Shown here: in pieces, positions 59,918-63,992 of the stretch | Numbering within the stretch: position 1 is the first letter of the stretch | How the letters are laid out: every line of letters begins with the position of its first letter | Assembly: GCA_027484165.1 (NCBI GenBank) | Contig: JAIXWH010000071.1 | Span: 41,366 to 105,365 of the forward strand | DNA from: Chitinophagaceae bacterium | Lineage (GTDB): Bacteria; Bacteroidota; Bacteroidia; Chitinophagales; Chitinophagaceae | Reading direction: 5' to 3' | Length of the DNA stretch: 64,000 bases | The notes under the pieces: model-generated | Database searches by the model: none | Told to the model about the DNA's origin: nothing | Seen by the model: the letters and a program-made list of their open reading frames with translations, nothing else | Program-made: the position numbers and the translations under genes

Positions 59918-62038
59918 TTATAATTTCATTTTTTTGATTAGAGCCAAAGTGTCTTTTTTCGTTTTTTCGAATTGATTTTTTTGGTCGATAATGAAACTAT
60001 TCTCTTCAAGTTTTCCAATTACATTTTCCATCTCTTTTTTATTAGTGTAAACCATGCTTCTAAATGGATTGGTATAGTCCTTCTCTCTCGATAAAAAGAT
60101 ATTATCATTCATCCATTCTTTGGTTGCAATCATTTGAAGCAGCACTTTTTTTAATTGGAAAGCATTGAAATCTATATTTGATATTCCTAAAACATGGAGA
60201 AGGCATGCGTAAGCATGATTCCTTTTATTTTTTTCGTATTGTATGCTTTGAGATTTATAAAACTGATGTACTTCCTCCCATTTTTTAATTTTATTCTTTT
60301 TTATCTTCTCTTTTAAAACGTCAATTTCTTTTGTTGGTATTAATTGGCCACCAACATTCATCCAACTCAACAAATGCGAATCAATCTTCAATGATTTTTT
60401 TAGTGTTTCGAAATCCTGAATTTTATTTTGAGAAATATGCTTCAATAATTCAGTGCTTGCATATAGTTGTATGATTTCTTTAAAAACGGCTATTGCCTTT
60501 TTTACTTTTATGATTTTTACTTTTCTTTTGCTATGTTCCCACCCATTTAAATAAGCTTCATCGTTTTTGTTTACTTCTAAATTTTCTAGCAAACTAATAG
60601 ATTCTGTAATTTCATTTATCGTATCAGGAGCCAGATAATCAAAGTCGATATGTTGTACTTTGTAAACTCTTTTATCTCTGGTATGGTATTTTGAAGAATT
60701 TCTTGCAAGAGCATACATGTTATACATAAACCAATATGCAGGCATTACTACCAGTTCATCCTTTGAAGTGTCATTGCTTATTAGACAAAAGGGGATAGGT
60801 ATATTCAATTCAGAAGGGTAATCGCCTTTTGCAATCATTGTATATGATGCAAATTTAGAGTTGTGTTTTAAGCTTACACACAAACCAGGCCAGAATCCTC
60901 TACCGGCAATAATTTCTCCATCAGCAGCTCTGCTATTATGATTGCTTCCTATTGTTGCACCGGCAGCAATGTTGCTTTGCCCCATGATTAAAGATGCACA
61001 TAAAAACGAATTGTTATGATGCTGTTCATGTGAAGGAAATATAAGTGAGTTTAAAACTTCACAACAAGATATTGTTGAATTGTTTCCTAAATAAGAATTG
61101 ATTAATCTAGCACCATACTTGAGTTGCGAGTGCGCTGCTGTGATAAATCTTACCGCTTTCACACCATAAAATATTCTACAACCATAACCAATGATTCCAT
61201 TCACCAATTCGCAGCCTTCACCAATTTGCGATTTTCTTTCTGCATCGCTATTAATGGTCAGGTTCTTTAATTTATTCGCACCTTTGATGTAAGCATCTTC
61301 ACCAATATTAGTGTCTTTAATAATTCCACAATTTTTTATTACCGTTCGTTTGCCAATTTTTCCATAGAAACCTCTTTGCTTATCAAATTTCCTTTCTGTG
61401 AGTTGTTTGAATTTATCAATAAGTACTTTGTCATCTCTAAATTTACTCCACATGAAAGCATCACCAGCAAGCATGCCATCAAAAGGTATAATACTTCTTC
61501 CTCCATTTTCATTACAGACTTCAATAATCATTCGTTGCTTCTCATCTGTCTCTCCATCTTTTAAAATCCCATTTCCAAATCTAGCTTTATCTGTGGTTGC
61601 TAATTCATTTATGTTGGTTAGGATTACCTCATCTGAAATGATGTAATGACTTAAATAACTTACATTTTCTATGCAAATATGATTGCCGATGTCGCTACTT
61701 ATTATCGTACTATTATAAATTCCTTCTGGTATTTTGAAATCATGAAATTCATGATATAAAGGAGACAAATCGCCAATTCGTACTAATCCATAGAATTTAG
61801 TTTTTTTTACCAATTCAGGATTGAATTTTCTGGAAACTAAGATATTTTTCCAATCGTCAGCTGTGTTTTGATTTTTTATTAAGATGTCAATTTGTACAGC
61901 TGTTAAGGGCTTGTAGCTTAAACAAGTTGGATTTTGCTTGTTTCTTAGATGGTATTCGTTTTTTCCTTTAGGAAGATAATTAGAATCAATAAAGTTGAAA
62001 CCAAGGTTATTTATTGAAGACTTTTTGATAAGATTCAT
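59918..62038 (-). CDS. DUF4954 family protein (left-handed beta-helix region)
   Basis: Track says +, but ATGAATCTTATC reads on the minus strand from 62038. EVCNENGGR, KGANKLKN, KYGARLINS, ISCCEVLNSLIFP, HHNNSFL, AAGATIGSNHNSR. Confidence 0.85.
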   Translation of the reverse strand: MNLIKKSSINNLGFNFIDSNYLPKGKNEYHLRNKQNPTCLSYKPLTAVQIDILIKNQNTADDWKNILVSRKFNPELVKKTKFYGLVRIGDLSPLYHEFHDFKIPEGIYNSTIISSDIGNHICIENVSYLSHYIISDEVILTNINELATTDKARFGNGILKDGETDEKQRMIIEVCNENGGRSIIPFDGMLAGDAFMWSKFRDDKVLIDKFKQLTERKFDKQRGFYGKIGKRTVIKNCGIIKDTNIGEDAYIKGANKLKNLTINSDAERKSQIGEGCELVNGIIGYGCRIFYGVKAVRFITAAHSQLKYGARLINSYLGNNSTISCCEVLNSLIFPSHEQHHNNSFLCASLIMGQSNIAAGATIGSNHNSRAADGEIIAGRGFWPGLCVSLKHNSKFASYTMIAKGDYPSELNIPIPFCLISNDTSKDELVVMPAYWFMYNMYALARNSSKYHTRDKRVYKVQHIDFDYLAPDTINEITESISLLENLEVNKNDEAYLNGWEHSKRKVKIIKVKKAIAVFKEIIQLYASTELLKHISQNKIQDFETLKKSLKIDSHLLSWMNVGGQLIPTKEIDVLKEKIKKNKIKKWEEVHQFYKSQSIQYEKNKRNHAYACLLHVLGISNIDFNAFQLKKVLLQMIATKEWMNDNIFLSREKDYTNPFRSMVYTNKKEMENVIGKLEENSFIIDQKNQFEKTKKDTLALIKKMKL

Positions 62039-62153
62039 TCTTGAAATTTAAAATTCAAATATTGTTATAAATCTTTTTATACAAACAAAAGTTTATAATT
62101 CACTTAATTTTAAAGTTAATGAATTTTGATTATTGAACAATAGTTCATTCAGA

Positions 62154-63992
62154 TTATTCCACCGTTACCGACTTCGCCAAATTTCTTGGCTTGTCAACAT
62201 CGATGCCTTTTAATGTTCCTACATAATAAGAGAGCAGTTGTAAAGGAATTACGGTAAGTATAGGGGCTACTATTTCATCAGCCATAGGAATTTCAAAATA
62301 ATCATTACTTATTGTTGGACTAACTTTGTCTCCTTCAGTGATGATAGAAATTATTTTTCCTTTCCTTGCTTTGATTTCCTGCATGTTGCTTACAATCTTT
62401 TCATGGTAAGGGTCATTTGTAGCAATAAAAACAACAGGCAGATTTTCGTCAACGAGCGCAATAGGACCATGTTTCATTTCAGCTGCTGGATAACCTTCAG
62501 CATGTATGTAGGAAATTTCTTTTAATTTCAAAGCACCTTCCAATGCAATAGGGAAATTGTATCCTCTGCCGAGAAATAAAAAATCAGTCGCATCTTTATA
62601 TTTTTCAGCAATCTTTTTAATTTCTTCTGCATTTTTCAAAATGCTGTCAACTTTTTCAGGAATTTGTTCTAATTCTACAAGTAGTTGATTGTAACGGTCA
62701 TTAGTGATGGTTCCCTTGTGTTTTGCAATATTTAAAGCCATCATCATTAGTACTGCCAGCTGTCCAGTAAAGGCTTTTGTAGATGCTACGCCAATTTCCG
62801 GACCAGCGTGTGTGTATGCGCCAGCATTTGAGATACGGGCTATAGAAGAGCCAACAGCATTCACAACCCCAAAGATAAAAGCTCCATTTTCTTTTGCTTT
62901 TTCCAATGCAACCAGTGTGTCCGCAGTTTCGCCGCTTTGAGAAATGGCAATGATTACATCTCCTTTGTTTACAATTGGGTTTCTGTATCTGAATTCAGAT
63001 GCATATTCCACTTCTACAGGAATTCTGCAAAGTTCTTCTATGATGTATTCTGCAATTAATCCCGCATGCCAGCTTGTTCCGCAAGCAACTATCATAATGC
63101 GATTTGCATTCAGCAATTGTTCTGTATGCAAATCAATGCCACTCATTTTGATGTAGCCTTCTTTGGCGTCTAATCTTCCACGTAAGCAATCATAAATGGT
63201 ACTAGGTTGTTCAAAAATTTCTTTTATCATGAAATGGTCATATCCCCCTTTTTCAATTGCAGCCAACTCCATGTCAAGCTTTGTGATGTATGGAGTTACT
63301 TTTTCATTTCCAAGATTTTTTAAAATCAATTCATCTGGCTTAACAATTGCCAACTCGTAATCGTTAACATAAACCACTTCTTTAGTATACTCAATAATAG
63401 GAGAGGCGTCGCTAGCCAAAAAATGTTCTCCTTTTCCAATTCCAATAACCAGAGGACTTCCTTTTCTTGCTGCAATGATGGTGTCTGGATTGTCTTCTTC
63501 AATCAAGAGGATACAATAAGCCCCACTAACTCTTTTCAATGCTATTCTTATTGCTTCTTCTAATTTACAGTCATTATTGTTTTTGATATCTTCTATGAAA
63601 TTCAAAAGTACTTCAGTATCTGTATCACTTTTGAATTGATATCCTTTATTTAAAAGCTCTTGTTTGATAAGGGCATAATTTTCAATGATACCATTGTGTA
63701 TCATGCTTATTTTTCCATTAGAGGATAAATGAGGGTGCGCATTTCTGTCGCTAGGCTCACCGTGAGTAGCCCATCTTGTATGACCAATTCCAATCTGGGC
63801 ATCCAGGTTTATTCCCACTAGAGATTCTTCTAATTCTGCCACCTTACCCTTTTTCTTATATACGTTTAATTCTCCATTGTTGAGTAAAGCAACACCACTA
63901 CTGTCATATCCTCTGTATTCCAATCTCTTTAAACCCTTCAAGATGATTGGGTAAGCTTGTTTAGTTCCGGTGTATCCAACTATTCCACACAT
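62154..63992 (-). CDS. glmS: Glutamine--fructose-6-phosphate transaminase (isomerizing)
   Basis: MCGIVG (Cys1), EYRGYDS, GHTRWATHG, SQSGETAD, VASTKAF, ALKLKEISYIHAE, KPRNLAKSVTVE. Confidence 0.99.
   Translation of the reverse strand: MCGIVGYTGTKQAYPIILKGLKRLEYRGYDSSGVALLNNGELNVYKKKGKVAELEESLVGINLDAQIGIGHTRWATHGEPSDRNAHPHLSSNGKISMIHNGIIENYALIKQELLNKGYQFKSDTDTEVLLNFIEDIKNNNDCKLEEAIRIALKRVSGAYCILLIEEDNPDTIIAARKGSPLVIGIGKGEHFLASDASPIIEYTKEVVYVNDYELAIVKPDELILKNLGNEKVTPYITKLDMELAAIEKGGYDHFMIKEIFEQPSTIYDCLRGRLDAKEGYIKMSGIDLHTEQLLNANRIMIVACGTSWHAGLIAEYIIEELCRIPVEVEYASEFRYRNPIVNKGDVIIAISQSGETADTLVALEKAKENGAFIFGVVNAVGSSIARISNAGAYTHAGPEIGVASTKAFTGQLAVLMMMALNIAKHKGTITNDRYNQLLVELEQIPEKVDSILKNAEEIKKIAEKYKDATDFLFLGRGYNFPIALEGALKLKEISYIHAEGYPAAEMKHGPIALVDENLPVVFIATNDPYHEKIVSNMQEIKARKGKIISIITEGDKVSPTISNDYFEIPMADEIVAPILTVIPLQLLSYYVGTLKGIDVDKPRNLAKSVTVE

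What the first reader, a model, noticed from the sequence alone, without database searches (positions are those of the whole stretch)
59918..62153. DUF4954 gene downstream of glmS carries a GlmU-like acyltransferase signature
Seen: 115 nt downstream of glmS, same strand, no GC-rich terminator between them. It has a hexapeptide-like left-handed beta-helix (~60860-61370). The segment SFLCASLIMGQSNIAAG aligns without gaps to the GlmU acetyltransferase segment TYLGDAEIGDNVNIGAG (recalled E. coli sequence), is preceded by His residues (QHHNN) and followed by TIGSNHNSR (cf. TITCNYDG). Established: GlmS makes GlcN-6-P, and the GlmU C-domain acetylates GlcN-1-P using a His in this position. Inference: DUF4954 is an uncharacterised amino-sugar acyltransferase or LbH enzyme in UDP-GlcNAc supply or recycling. 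Bacteroidota often encode a separate alternative GlmU, so the role may be different.
Basis: partly seen in the sequence, partly recalled or inferred. Interest (0 to 1): 0.6.

Follow-up and report, generated by a model that had tools for sequence, protein, structure and literature searches.

The report
GlmU-like acetyltransferase gene behind glmS
The unnamed gene behind glmS encodes a distant, rebuilt relative of the enzyme half that acetylates glucosamine phosphate for cell-wall synthesis, and across Bacteroidota it is found mostly in genomes that lack the usual version, so it is a testable candidate for a missing step.

Summary
A 706-aa DUF4954+DUF6819 gene (59918-62038, minus strand) lies 115 nt behind glmS with no terminator-like site between them.

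A confident AF2 model (pLDDT 93.8) has a left-handed beta-helix closest to QdtC and the GlmU acetyltransferase domain (Z 17-18). Profile alignments chained through the 'alternative bacterial GlmU' (TIGR03991) place invariant E327, H341, F345, N356 and A359 on E. coli GlmU E349, H363, Y366, N377 and A380. A modelled trimer of the helix puts these residues at subunit interfaces.

- **glmS linkage:** glmS is the upstream neighbour in 67 of 74 informative Chitinophagaceae loci. Elsewhere the link is sporadic, but the neighbours are still glmS, nagB or NagC-like genes.
- **Canonical GlmU:** no bifunctional copy was found in 251 sampled Bacteroidota.
- **Alternative GlmU:** DUF4954 is present in 17 of 19 (order sample) and 9 of 13 (phylum sample) genomes lacking TIGR03991, against 10 of 82 and 16 of 238 with it.
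- **This genome:** it keeps a diverged alt-GlmU and has no nagA or nagB.

Best reading (0.6): an anabolic glucosamine-phosphate N-acetyltransferase feeding UDP-GlcNAc. Substrate and acyl donor are unproven. The scan has flagged DUF4954 on other DNA before. No paper in the searched library assigns it a function.

The parts
62154..63992 (-). glmS, glutamine--fructose-6-phosphate aminotransferase (612 aa), which makes GlcN-6-P
   Evidence: Pfam GATase_6/7 plus two SIS domains. 74-91% identical glmS lies upstream of DUF4954 in relatives.
62039..62153 (-). 115-nt AT-rich spacer between glmS and the DUF4954 gene
   Evidence: Sequence read. No terminator-like hairpin on the minus strand. In relatives the same spacer shrinks to 6-9 nt. 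An internal Bacteroidota-type promoter was not tested.
59918..62038 (-). DUF4954/DUF6819 gene (706 aa plus stop), candidate glucosamine-phosphate N-acetyltransferase
   Evidence: AF2 model pLDDT 93.8, pTM 0.93.
61637..61861 (-). N-terminal coils of the left-handed beta-helix (residues ~60-134)
   Evidence: Short strands in the model. GlmU alignments start at model residues 108-129 and the YdcK alignment spans 31-503.
61364..61636 (-). Insertion that interrupts the helix (residues ~135-225). It carries invariant E177 and R181.
   Evidence: Model secondary structure. E177 and R181 are invariant in both subfamilies.
60749..61363 (-). Main left-handed beta-helix (residues 226-430), the GlmU/QdtC-like acyltransferase core
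   Evidence: VIA-align: QdtC 3fs8 Z 18.0, rmsd 2.4 over 219 residues; E. coli GlmU 2oi6 Z 17.1, rmsd 1.9 over 188 residues, 21% identity.
60929..61060 (-). Catalytic-motif stretch (residues 327-370): E327, H337, H340, H341, F345, N356, A359, S365-N368, R370
   Evidence: Invariant or nearly invariant columns. Aligned to GlmU E349, H363, Y366, N377 and A380 through alt-GlmU. These residues lie in the modelled trimer interface.
59921..60745 (-). C-terminal helical domain (residues 432-706, including DUF6819). Invariant R446, K450 and R454 sit on its first long helix.
   Evidence: Domain model pLDDT 96.3. No solved relative: best Z 6.6, generic helical hairpins only. Conservation.

Best explanation
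The gene encodes an active, highly derived relative of the GlmU-type left-handed beta-helix N-acetyltransferase. It is probably transcribed with glmS.

Proposed role: GlmS makes glucosamine-6-phosphate. The DUF4954 protein transfers an acetyl group from acetyl-CoA (or, in some lineages, an acetyl carrier protein) onto the amino group of glucosamine phosphate. I favour GlcN-6-P over GlcN-1-P at roughly 55:35. A mutase and a uridylyltransferase then give UDP-GlcNAc.

Proposed chemistry (inferred): H341, oriented by E327, acts as the base. N356 and the N-I-A-A-G turn hold the sugar and the thioester. The sites lie between subunits of a trimer. The inserted segment (E177, R181) and the first C-terminal helix (R446, K450, R454) probably close the site or bind the phosphates of the donor.

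In this genome the enzyme works beside a diverged alternative GlmU. In many Bacteroidales and some other Bacteroidota it appears to have replaced that enzyme's acetyltransferase.

Shown here: fold, conserved residues, gene linkage and phyletic pattern. Inferred: activity, substrate, acyl donor and direction.
For: **Family and model.** Pfam DUF4954 plus DUF6819. AF2 model pLDDT 93.8.

**Fold.** Closest solved folds are QdtC (Z 18.0) and about 30 GlmU entries (Z 16-17, rmsd ~2 A, 188-200 residues, 17-21% identity), ahead of LpxD and LpxA (Z ~15).

**Catalytic residues.** DUF4954 helix against the alt-GlmU family: prob 96.4, E 1.1e-9. Alt-GlmU against E. coli GlmU: prob 96.1, E 2.9e-9. Chained, they give E327=E349, H341=H363, F345=Y366, N356=N377 and A359=A380. 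The E. coli residue numbers were checked on the real sequence. E327, H340, H341, N356, R380, E177, R181, R446, K450 and R454 are kept in both deep subfamilies, which are only 22-25% identical.

**Trimer model.** Residues 226-500 in three copies scored 0.87 against a best control of 0.00. That mark was reached by 20 of 30 proteins solved as pairs of one chain and 1 of 23 solved as single chains. Runs agree in at least 78% of contacts and partner pLDDT is at least 69. The interface holds 311, 325-329, 340-345 and 358-366.

**Gene linkage.**
- glmS lies directly upstream on the same strand in 67 of 74 informative Chitinophagaceae loci, with gaps down to 6 nt, and also in G226 of another family.
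- The order is reversed (DUF4954 then glmS, 42 nt apart) in G242, in the other subfamily.
- glmS is divergent from a 32%-identical relative.
- nagB is beside DUF4954 in 5 of 5 loci of family f22.
- NagC-like ROK genes are divergent from two further relatives.

**Phyletic pattern.**
- 0 of 251 sampled Bacteroidota have a bifunctional GlmU.
- TIGR03991 is present in 238 of 251. Of the 13 without it, 9 have DUF4954, against 16 of the 238 with it.
- In a one-genome-per-family sample of the order of G030: 17 of 19 without TIGR03991 have DUF4954, against 10 of 82 with it. Odds ratio 61.
- Two genomes without TIGR03991 (G180, G338) carry only the window's subfamily.
- Where both genes occur, alt-GlmU scores lower (median E-value exponent -116.5 against -132.5).
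- The B. thetaiotaomicron control has DUF4954 but neither GlmU nor TIGR03991.

**This genome.** It has no nagA or nagB, so the gene cannot serve GlcNAc breakdown here.
Against: - No enzymatic data exist for any family member.
- This genome keeps an alt-GlmU whose acetyltransferase motif is intact, so the gene is not needed to fill a gap here.
- GlmU's phosphate-binding K351 is not kept (L329) and S405 has no counterpart.
- R311 and R370, near GlmU R333 and K392, are kept only in the window's subfamily.
- Linkage to glmS is absent in many lineages. In G030 the neighbours are HflX and fumarase.
- The phyletic association rests on few independent events, because related families share history.
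- Six genomes lack both genes (G118, G005, G111, G193, G290, G342).
- TIGR03991 is itself only a 'hypothetical equivalog'.
- The trimer was modelled on a truncated piece and may reflect memory of solved LbH trimers. Whether the full-length protein can trimerise was not testable.
Confidence: 0.6

Rival explanations
1. It catalyses the same chemistry but mainly in the opposite direction. It would move the acetyl group of GlcNAc-6-P onto CoA or a carrier protein, replacing the deacetylase NagA in amino-sugar breakdown or recycling of cell-wall GlcNAc.
For: In other lineages DUF4954 sits between nagB genes with an ACP, an ADP-forming acyl-CoA synthetase-like gene and an HMGL-like synthase. Two such genomes (G152, G188) lack NagA. 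Earlier scan notes report the same pattern.
Against: This genome has neither nagA nor nagB, and the gene follows the biosynthetic glmS. Amide-to-thioester transfer is energetically uphill (established thermodynamics). Three of the five nagB-linked genomes do have NagA, and all five have glmS. The clusters fit an anabolic reading (NagB run towards GlcN-6-P) equally well.
Confidence: 0.1
2. It is an LbH acyltransferase with a different acceptor, for example a nucleotide-linked amino sugar (like QdtC or LpxD) or a hydroxyl group of a hexosamine. It would be linked to glmS only because both feed envelope glycan synthesis.
For: The best structural match is QdtC, a dTDP-amino-sugar N-acetyltransferase (Z 18.0), and LpxD and LpxA score Z ~15. 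GlmU's K351 and S405 are not conserved. Many extra invariant Arg and Lys residues could bind a nucleotide.
Against: The sequence motif (E...H...[FY]L...N-x-G-A-G) matches the GlmU/alt-GlmU lineage specifically. The neighbours are enzymes of free GlcN-6-P (glmS, nagB), not sugar-nucleotide or lipid A genes. The gene is enriched exactly where the GlmU-type acetyltransferase is missing. The Z scores of QdtC and GlmU differ by about 1 or less, which is a tie.
Confidence: 0.15
3. It is a non-catalytic beta-helix protein, as in GlgC or eIF2B-epsilon, that senses a hexosamine metabolite and regulates GlmS or hexosamine flux.
For: Weak Pfam and NCBIfam hits are to the non-catalytic LbH domains of eIF2B and GlgC. 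The large helical C-terminal domain has no enzymatic relative. The gene is adjacent to glmS.
Against: Polar residues typical of catalysis (Glu, two His, Asn, several Arg) are invariant across subfamilies only 22-25% identical, and they align with the GlmU active site. A regulator would not explain why the gene is found where the alt-GlmU acetyltransferase is missing.
Confidence: 0.07

Closest known systems
GlmU C-terminal domain, glucosamine-1-phosphate N-acetyltransferase (EC 2.3.1.157; E. coli 2oi6, 1hv9)
   Same: Left-handed beta-helix that superposes at Z ~17 and rmsd ~2 A over 188 residues. The Glu-His dyad, the aromatic residue after the His, and the N-x-G-A-G turn are aligned. The active-site residues lie at a modelled trimer interface. 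It is a genomic partner of glmS, as in the E. coli glmUS operon.
   Different: It has no uridylyltransferase domain. The helix is split by a ~90-residue insertion and followed by a 275-residue helical domain. K351 and S405 are not kept. It has no detectable match to TIGR01173. The substrate may be GlcN-6-P rather than GlcN-1-P.
'Alternative bacterial GlmU', NCBIfam TIGR03991 (hypothetical equivalog), and archaeal GlmU, TIGR03992 (ST0452/MJ1101 type)
   Same: Nearest sequence family by profile comparison (prob 96.4, E 1.1e-9), with the same catalytic register. The two show a near-complementary distribution in Bacteroidota.
   Different: TIGR03991 proteins are ~400 aa with an N-terminal nucleotidyltransferase-like domain. 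DUF4954 has none and is 650-790 aa. P0001 does not score against TIGR03991. In this genome both are present.
QdtC, dTDP-3-amino-3,6-dideoxy-glucose N-acetyltransferase (3fs8)
   Same: Top structural match (Z 18.0, rmsd 2.4 A, 219 residues, model 226-467), including the segment just after the helix.
   Different: 16% identity. QdtC acts on a nucleotide sugar. No gene context here points to dTDP-sugar synthesis.
GNA1, eukaryotic glucosamine-6-phosphate N-acetyltransferase (EC 2.3.1.4)
   Same: Possibly the same reaction and pathway position (acetylation at the 6-phosphate stage, directly after the GlmS step). This is inference from the glmS and nagB neighbourhoods.
   Different: GNA1 is a GNAT-fold enzyme, with an unrelated fold and no homology.
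YdcK (Salmonella 2pig/2f9c), an uncharacterised LbH protein
   Same: The longest structural overlap with the model (residues 31-503, 267 aligned, Z 17.2). It therefore shares the extended helix including the N-terminal coils.
   Different: 9% identity, rmsd 3.8 A. Its function is unknown, so it adds no functional information.

Membership tests
Pfam DUF4954 (PF16314) with DUF6819 (PF20683) | Score above the curated gathering thresholds of both models | tested here: met
   188.3 bits against a cut-off of 26.2, and 32.7 bits against 23.5. This is the low-scoring 'A' subfamily; the Bacteroides-type 'B' subfamily scores 500-790 bits.
GlmU-type GlcN-1-P N-acetyltransferase (EC 2.3.1.157) | Left-handed beta-helix fold superposable on the GlmU C-domain | tested here: met
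   Z 16-17, rmsd 1.9-2.9 A, 188-202 aligned residues for about 30 GlmU entries.
GlmU-type GlcN-1-P N-acetyltransferase (EC 2.3.1.157) | Catalytic His363 with Glu349, plus Tyr366, Asn377 and Ala380 | tested here: met
   H341, E327, F345, N356 and A359, by chained profile alignments. All are invariant or at least 90% conserved. The register was not checked on coordinates.
GlmU-type GlcN-1-P N-acetyltransferase (EC 2.3.1.157) | Phosphate-binding Arg333, Lys351 and Lys392, and Ser405 | tested here: inconclusive
   K351 aligns with L329. S405 has no counterpart. R311 and R370 lie within 2 residues of R333 and K392, but only in the window's subfamily.
GlmU-type GlcN-1-P N-acetyltransferase (EC 2.3.1.157) | Homotrimer with active sites at the subunit interfaces | tested here: inconclusive
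   The fragment 226-500 in three copies scored 0.87 against a best control of 0.00, and the motif residues lie in the interface. The construct is truncated, the result may reflect memory of LbH trimers, and the full length was too large to model.
GlmU (bifunctional, TIGR01173) | Fused N-terminal uridylyltransferase domain and a score above 366.85 bits | tested here: not met
   P0001 has no NTP_transferase domain and no TIGR01173 hit. It is therefore not a GlmU orthologue.
alt_bact_glmU (TIGR03991) | Score above 225.3 bits, with an NTP_transf_4 domain followed by LbH | tested here: not met
   P0001 gives no hit. The genome's true member is L006:1225-2268 at 325 bits. Only remote homology of the helix is seen.
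GlcN-phosphate N-acetyltransferase (by function) | Acetyl transfer to GlcN-6-P or GlcN-1-P in vitro or by complementation | not testable with these tools
   No experimental data were found. Only two incidental mentions of DUF4954 exist in the searched library.

The most novel reading that the evidence does not exclude
DUF4954 is a reversible glucosamine-6-phosphate transacetylase that uses CoA or a dedicated acyl carrier protein. In one direction it replaces the acetyltransferase half of GlmU or alt-GlmU for UDP-GlcNAc synthesis, as behind glmS here. In the other it replaces the hydrolytic deacetylase NagA, keeping the acetyl group as a thioester that is turned into ATP or citrate, as in the ACP-synthetase-nagB clusters. 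This would be a new, energy-conserving branch of amino-sugar metabolism, and an essential enzyme in Bacteroides and possibly Treponema pallidum.
Probability: 0.2. Interest if true: 0.85.

Novelty: new variant of a known kind. Interest (0 to 1): 0.62.

Why it matters
**An open gap.** Renzi et al. 2015 (PMC4358021) found that most Bacteroidetes have only a monofunctional GlmU-like uridylyltransferase. They concluded that most of the phylum might be unable to make GlcNAc. In the 251 genomes sampled here, none has a bifunctional GlmU. Most have the untested 'alternative GlmU'. The genomes with neither are mostly the ones that carry DUF4954, and the B. thetaiotaomicron control shows the same pattern.

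**What follows if the function holds.** If DUF4954 is the glucosamine-phosphate acetyltransferase, it closes a gap in an essential cell-wall pathway of major gut bacteria. It would probably be an essential gene there. The family is also listed in the small T. pallidum genome (PMC6953169).

**A new form of a classic fold.** It would add a third architecture, after GlmU and GNA1, for this step. The question becomes directly testable with standard assays and existing mutant systems.

Tried and rejected
- **phmmer of P0001 against PDB sequences:** no hit even at E 10.
- **hhalign of the family alignment against the single E. coli GlmU sequence:** the alignment was about two and a half coils out of register (offset 64). 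It treated the HEQHH stretch as an insertion. I rejected it as a repeat artefact, because the structural ranges and the alt-GlmU profile agree on an offset of about 21-22.
- **Idea that DUF4954 complements absence of canonical GlmU:** rejected. Canonical GlmU is missing from all 251 genomes sampled, whether or not they have DUF4954.
- **Idea that alt-GlmU has lost its catalytic motif in genomes with DUF4954:** not so. The KAH...NLGAG motif is intact. Only the N-terminal domain is shortened, in genus g1.
- **Search of five alt-GlmU-less genomes with one alt-GlmU helix sequence:** nothing found. The TIGR01173 family search there found only small generic LbH proteins, LpxA/LpxD-sized frames and small nucleotidyltransferases.
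- **C-terminal domain folded alone and compared with 48,161 chains:** best Z 6.6, generic helical hairpins only, so no assignment.
- **Sigma-70 promoter scan of the spacer:** uninformative. There were fewer sites than in shuffles, and Bacteroidota promoters differ from that consensus.
- **Literature searches** for DUF4954, DUF6819, TIGR03991 and B. thetaiotaomicron with GlmU found no functional study.
Full report
**What is there.** The finding covers a 706-aa ORF on the minus strand (59918-62038) and the 115-nt spacer (62039-62153) that separates it from glmS (62154-63992, minus strand).
- Pfam assigns DUF4954 (residues 42-487, E 2.6e-55) and DUF6819 (555-702). glmS has the expected amidotransferase and two SIS domains.
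- NCBIfam has no model for the protein, and no PDB sequence matches it.
- No terminator-like hairpin lies on the minus strand in the spacer.
- Upstream of glmS on the same strand is mgtE. Downstream, aroQ converges on the gene. glmS and DUF4954 therefore form a two-gene unit.
- The closest named relatives are Ferruginibacter and other Chitinophagaceae.
The recalled E. coli GlmU segment is correct when checked against NC_000913.3.

**Structure.** An alignment of 55 diverse homologues (A1) gave an AlphaFold2 model with pLDDT 93.8 and pTM 0.93.
- The model is a left-handed beta-helix: coils at ~60-134, a ~90-residue insertion, then the main helix at 226-430. A 275-residue helical domain follows.
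- Re-alignment of Foldseek's candidates gives QdtC (Z 18.0, rmsd 2.4 A, 219 residues) and about 30 GlmU entries (Z 16-17, rmsd ~2 A, 188-200 residues, 17-21% identity). YdcK follows at Z 17.2 and LpxD/LpxA at Z ~15.
- The C-terminal domain, folded alone (pLDDT 96.3), has no solved relative. The best Z is 6.6, from generic helical hairpins.

**Active site.** In a repeat fold the register matters.
- A profile against the single E. coli sequence slid about two and a half coils out of register, and pairwise diagonals are weak.
- A profile of the DUF4954 helix against an alignment of 'alternative bacterial GlmU' (TIGR03991) proteins gave prob 96.4, E 1.1e-9 over 120 columns.
- That family in turn aligns to E. 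coli GlmU with prob 96.1, E 2.9e-9.
- Chained, the two alignments give E327=E349, H341=H363, F345=Y366, N356=N377 and A359=A380.
- These residues are invariant or nearly so in A1.
- E327, H340, H341, N356, R380, E177, R181, R446, K450 and R454 are also kept in a second deep subfamily that is only 22-25% identical.
- Not kept: K351 (L329) and S405. R311 and R370, near R333 and K392, are kept only in the window's subfamily.
- A model of three copies of residues 226-500 scored 0.87 against a best control of 0.00. That mark was reached by 20 of 30 proteins solved as pairs of one chain and by 1 of 23 solved as single chains. The runs agree in at least 78% of contacts, and partner pLDDT is at least 69. 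Residues 311, 325-329, 340-345 and 358-366 lie in the interface, as in GlmU.
- This trimer result may reflect memory of solved LbH trimers, and it used a truncated piece.

**Gene neighbourhoods.**
- Among 80 Chitinophagaceae loci, glmS is the upstream same-strand neighbour in 67 of the 74 with enough upstream sequence. Gaps run from 6 to 901 nt.
- Outside that family the link is sporadic but recurs in different arrangements. It is the same order in G226 of another family. It is reversed (DUF4954 then glmS, 42 nt apart) in G242 of the other subfamily. It is divergent beside a 32%-identical relative.
- In five of five loci of family f22, nagB is beside DUF4954.
- One of those loci reads ACP, ADP-forming acyl-CoA synthetase-like, NagB, DUF4954, HMGL-like synthase, NagB.
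- NagC-like ROK genes are divergent from two more relatives.
- Other loci show unrelated neighbours: HflX and fumarase in G030, and others.
- The common theme is GlcN-6-P, the product of GlmS and the substrate or product of NagB.

**Phyletic pattern.**
- This genome (2.5 Mb, 100% complete) has no bifunctional GlmU.
- It does have a TIGR03991 member (L006, 325 bits). Its acetyltransferase motif is intact, but its N-terminal domain is shortened.
- It also has a 356-aa nucleotidyltransferase with a short helix.
- In 251 sampled Bacteroidota genomes, none has a GlmU over the cut-off, and 102 have only a stand-alone N-terminal half.
- TIGR03991 is present in 238 of the 251. DUF4954 is present in 25.
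- Of the 13 genomes without TIGR03991, 9 have DUF4954, against 16 of the 238 with it.
- In a second sample, one genome per family of the order of G030, 17 of 19 genomes without TIGR03991 have DUF4954, against 10 of 82 with it. The odds ratios are 61 and 31. Relatedness means far fewer independent events than genomes.
- G180 and G338 lack TIGR03991 and carry only the window's subfamily.
- Where both genes coexist, the alt-GlmU scores lower: median E-value exponent -116.5 against -132.5. Within families f1 and f6 the medians are -95 against -128.
- The B. thetaiotaomicron control has DUF4954 but neither GlmU nor TIGR03991.
- Five alt-GlmU-less genomes show no other GlmU-like helix beyond small generic acetyltransferases and LpxA/LpxD-sized frames.

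**Direction of the reaction.** This genome has neither nagA nor nagB, and its only GlmM-like mutase is divergent at 193 bits. A catabolic role is therefore excluded here, and the glmS pairing points to synthesis. In f22, the two genomes lacking TIGR03991 also lack NagA, while the three with one have the other. All five have glmS elsewhere. That leaves open that the enzyme runs both ways in other lineages.

**Reading.**
- Best (0.6): an active glucosamine-phosphate N-acetyltransferase derived from the GlmU/alt-GlmU lineage. Here it works with GlmS towards UDP-GlcNAc and is partly redundant with a diverged alt-GlmU. Elsewhere it is the replacement for that enzyme.
- GlcN-6-P is favoured over GlcN-1-P on neighbourhood grounds only.
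- Rivals: a mainly reverse, NagA-like role (0.1), another acceptor such as a nucleotide amino sugar (0.15), and a non-catalytic regulator (0.07).

**Known or new.**
- The library holds only incidental mentions of DUF4954 and nothing on DUF6819 or TIGR03991.
- Renzi et al. 2015 documented the missing acetyltransferase problem in Bacteroidetes.
- This scan has flagged DUF4954 before on other DNA: 124 notes, reporting nagB partnership, GlmS fusions and ACP clusters. I re-tested the nagB and ACP claims here. I did not test the fusion claim.
- It is a new variant of a known kind, the LbH acetyltransferases, with a new architecture.

Noticed in passing
L006:1225-2268 (+) (G000:C107, outside the window); L143 (G182): This genome's alternative GlmU (TIGR03991, 325 bits) lacks about 45 residues of the N-terminal nucleotidyltransferase-like domain, as does its congener G182. 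The LbH catalytic motif is intact. Its uridylyltransferase half may be degenerate in this genus.
   Followed up: partly
phylum sample, (e.g. G093:C1:42996-43736): 102 of 251 Bacteroidota genomes carry a stand-alone ~250-280 aa homologue of only the uridylyltransferase half of GlmU (TIGR01173 positions 2-240, E 1e-66 to 1e-86). Nearly all of them also have TIGR03991 (for example family f19: 51 of 51 and 50 of 51). This raises the question of whether TIGR03991 is really bifunctional.
   Followed up: no
L002:787-3459 (-) (G000:C107): A complete GDP-D-glycero-alpha-D-manno-heptose cluster (HddA-like kinase, GmhA, HddC-like guanylyltransferase, GmhB) lies about 4 kb from the alt-GlmU gene.
   Followed up: no
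L124:2589-10302 (+) (G152): A tight six-gene row: ACP, ADP-forming acyl-CoA synthetase-like, NagB, DUF4954, HMGL-like (citrate or isopropylmalate synthase-like), NagB. It lies in a genome that lacks both NagA and TIGR03991.
   Followed up: partly
L089 (CAJCIQ010000145.1): A contig deposited as 'Beijerinckiaceae bacterium' carries a Chitinophagaceae-type glmS-DUF4954 pair (57% and 77% identity to the window's proteins, 15-nt gap). It is probably a mis-binned contig.
   Followed up: no
L119:6744-12426 (+) (G030): In a Bacteroides-type genome, DUF4954 sits in a tight row HflX GTPase, DUF4954, class I fumarate hydratase, ABC ATPase (gaps 3-18 nt), with no amino-sugar gene nearby.
   Followed up: no
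L136 (G000:C22:6642-7976): The only GlmM-like phosphohexomutase scores 193 bits against a GlmM cut-off of 447. The B. thetaiotaomicron control may likewise fall below that cut-off. Its real substrate (GlcN-6-P or GlcNAc-6-P) would decide at which stage acetylation occurs.
   Followed up: no
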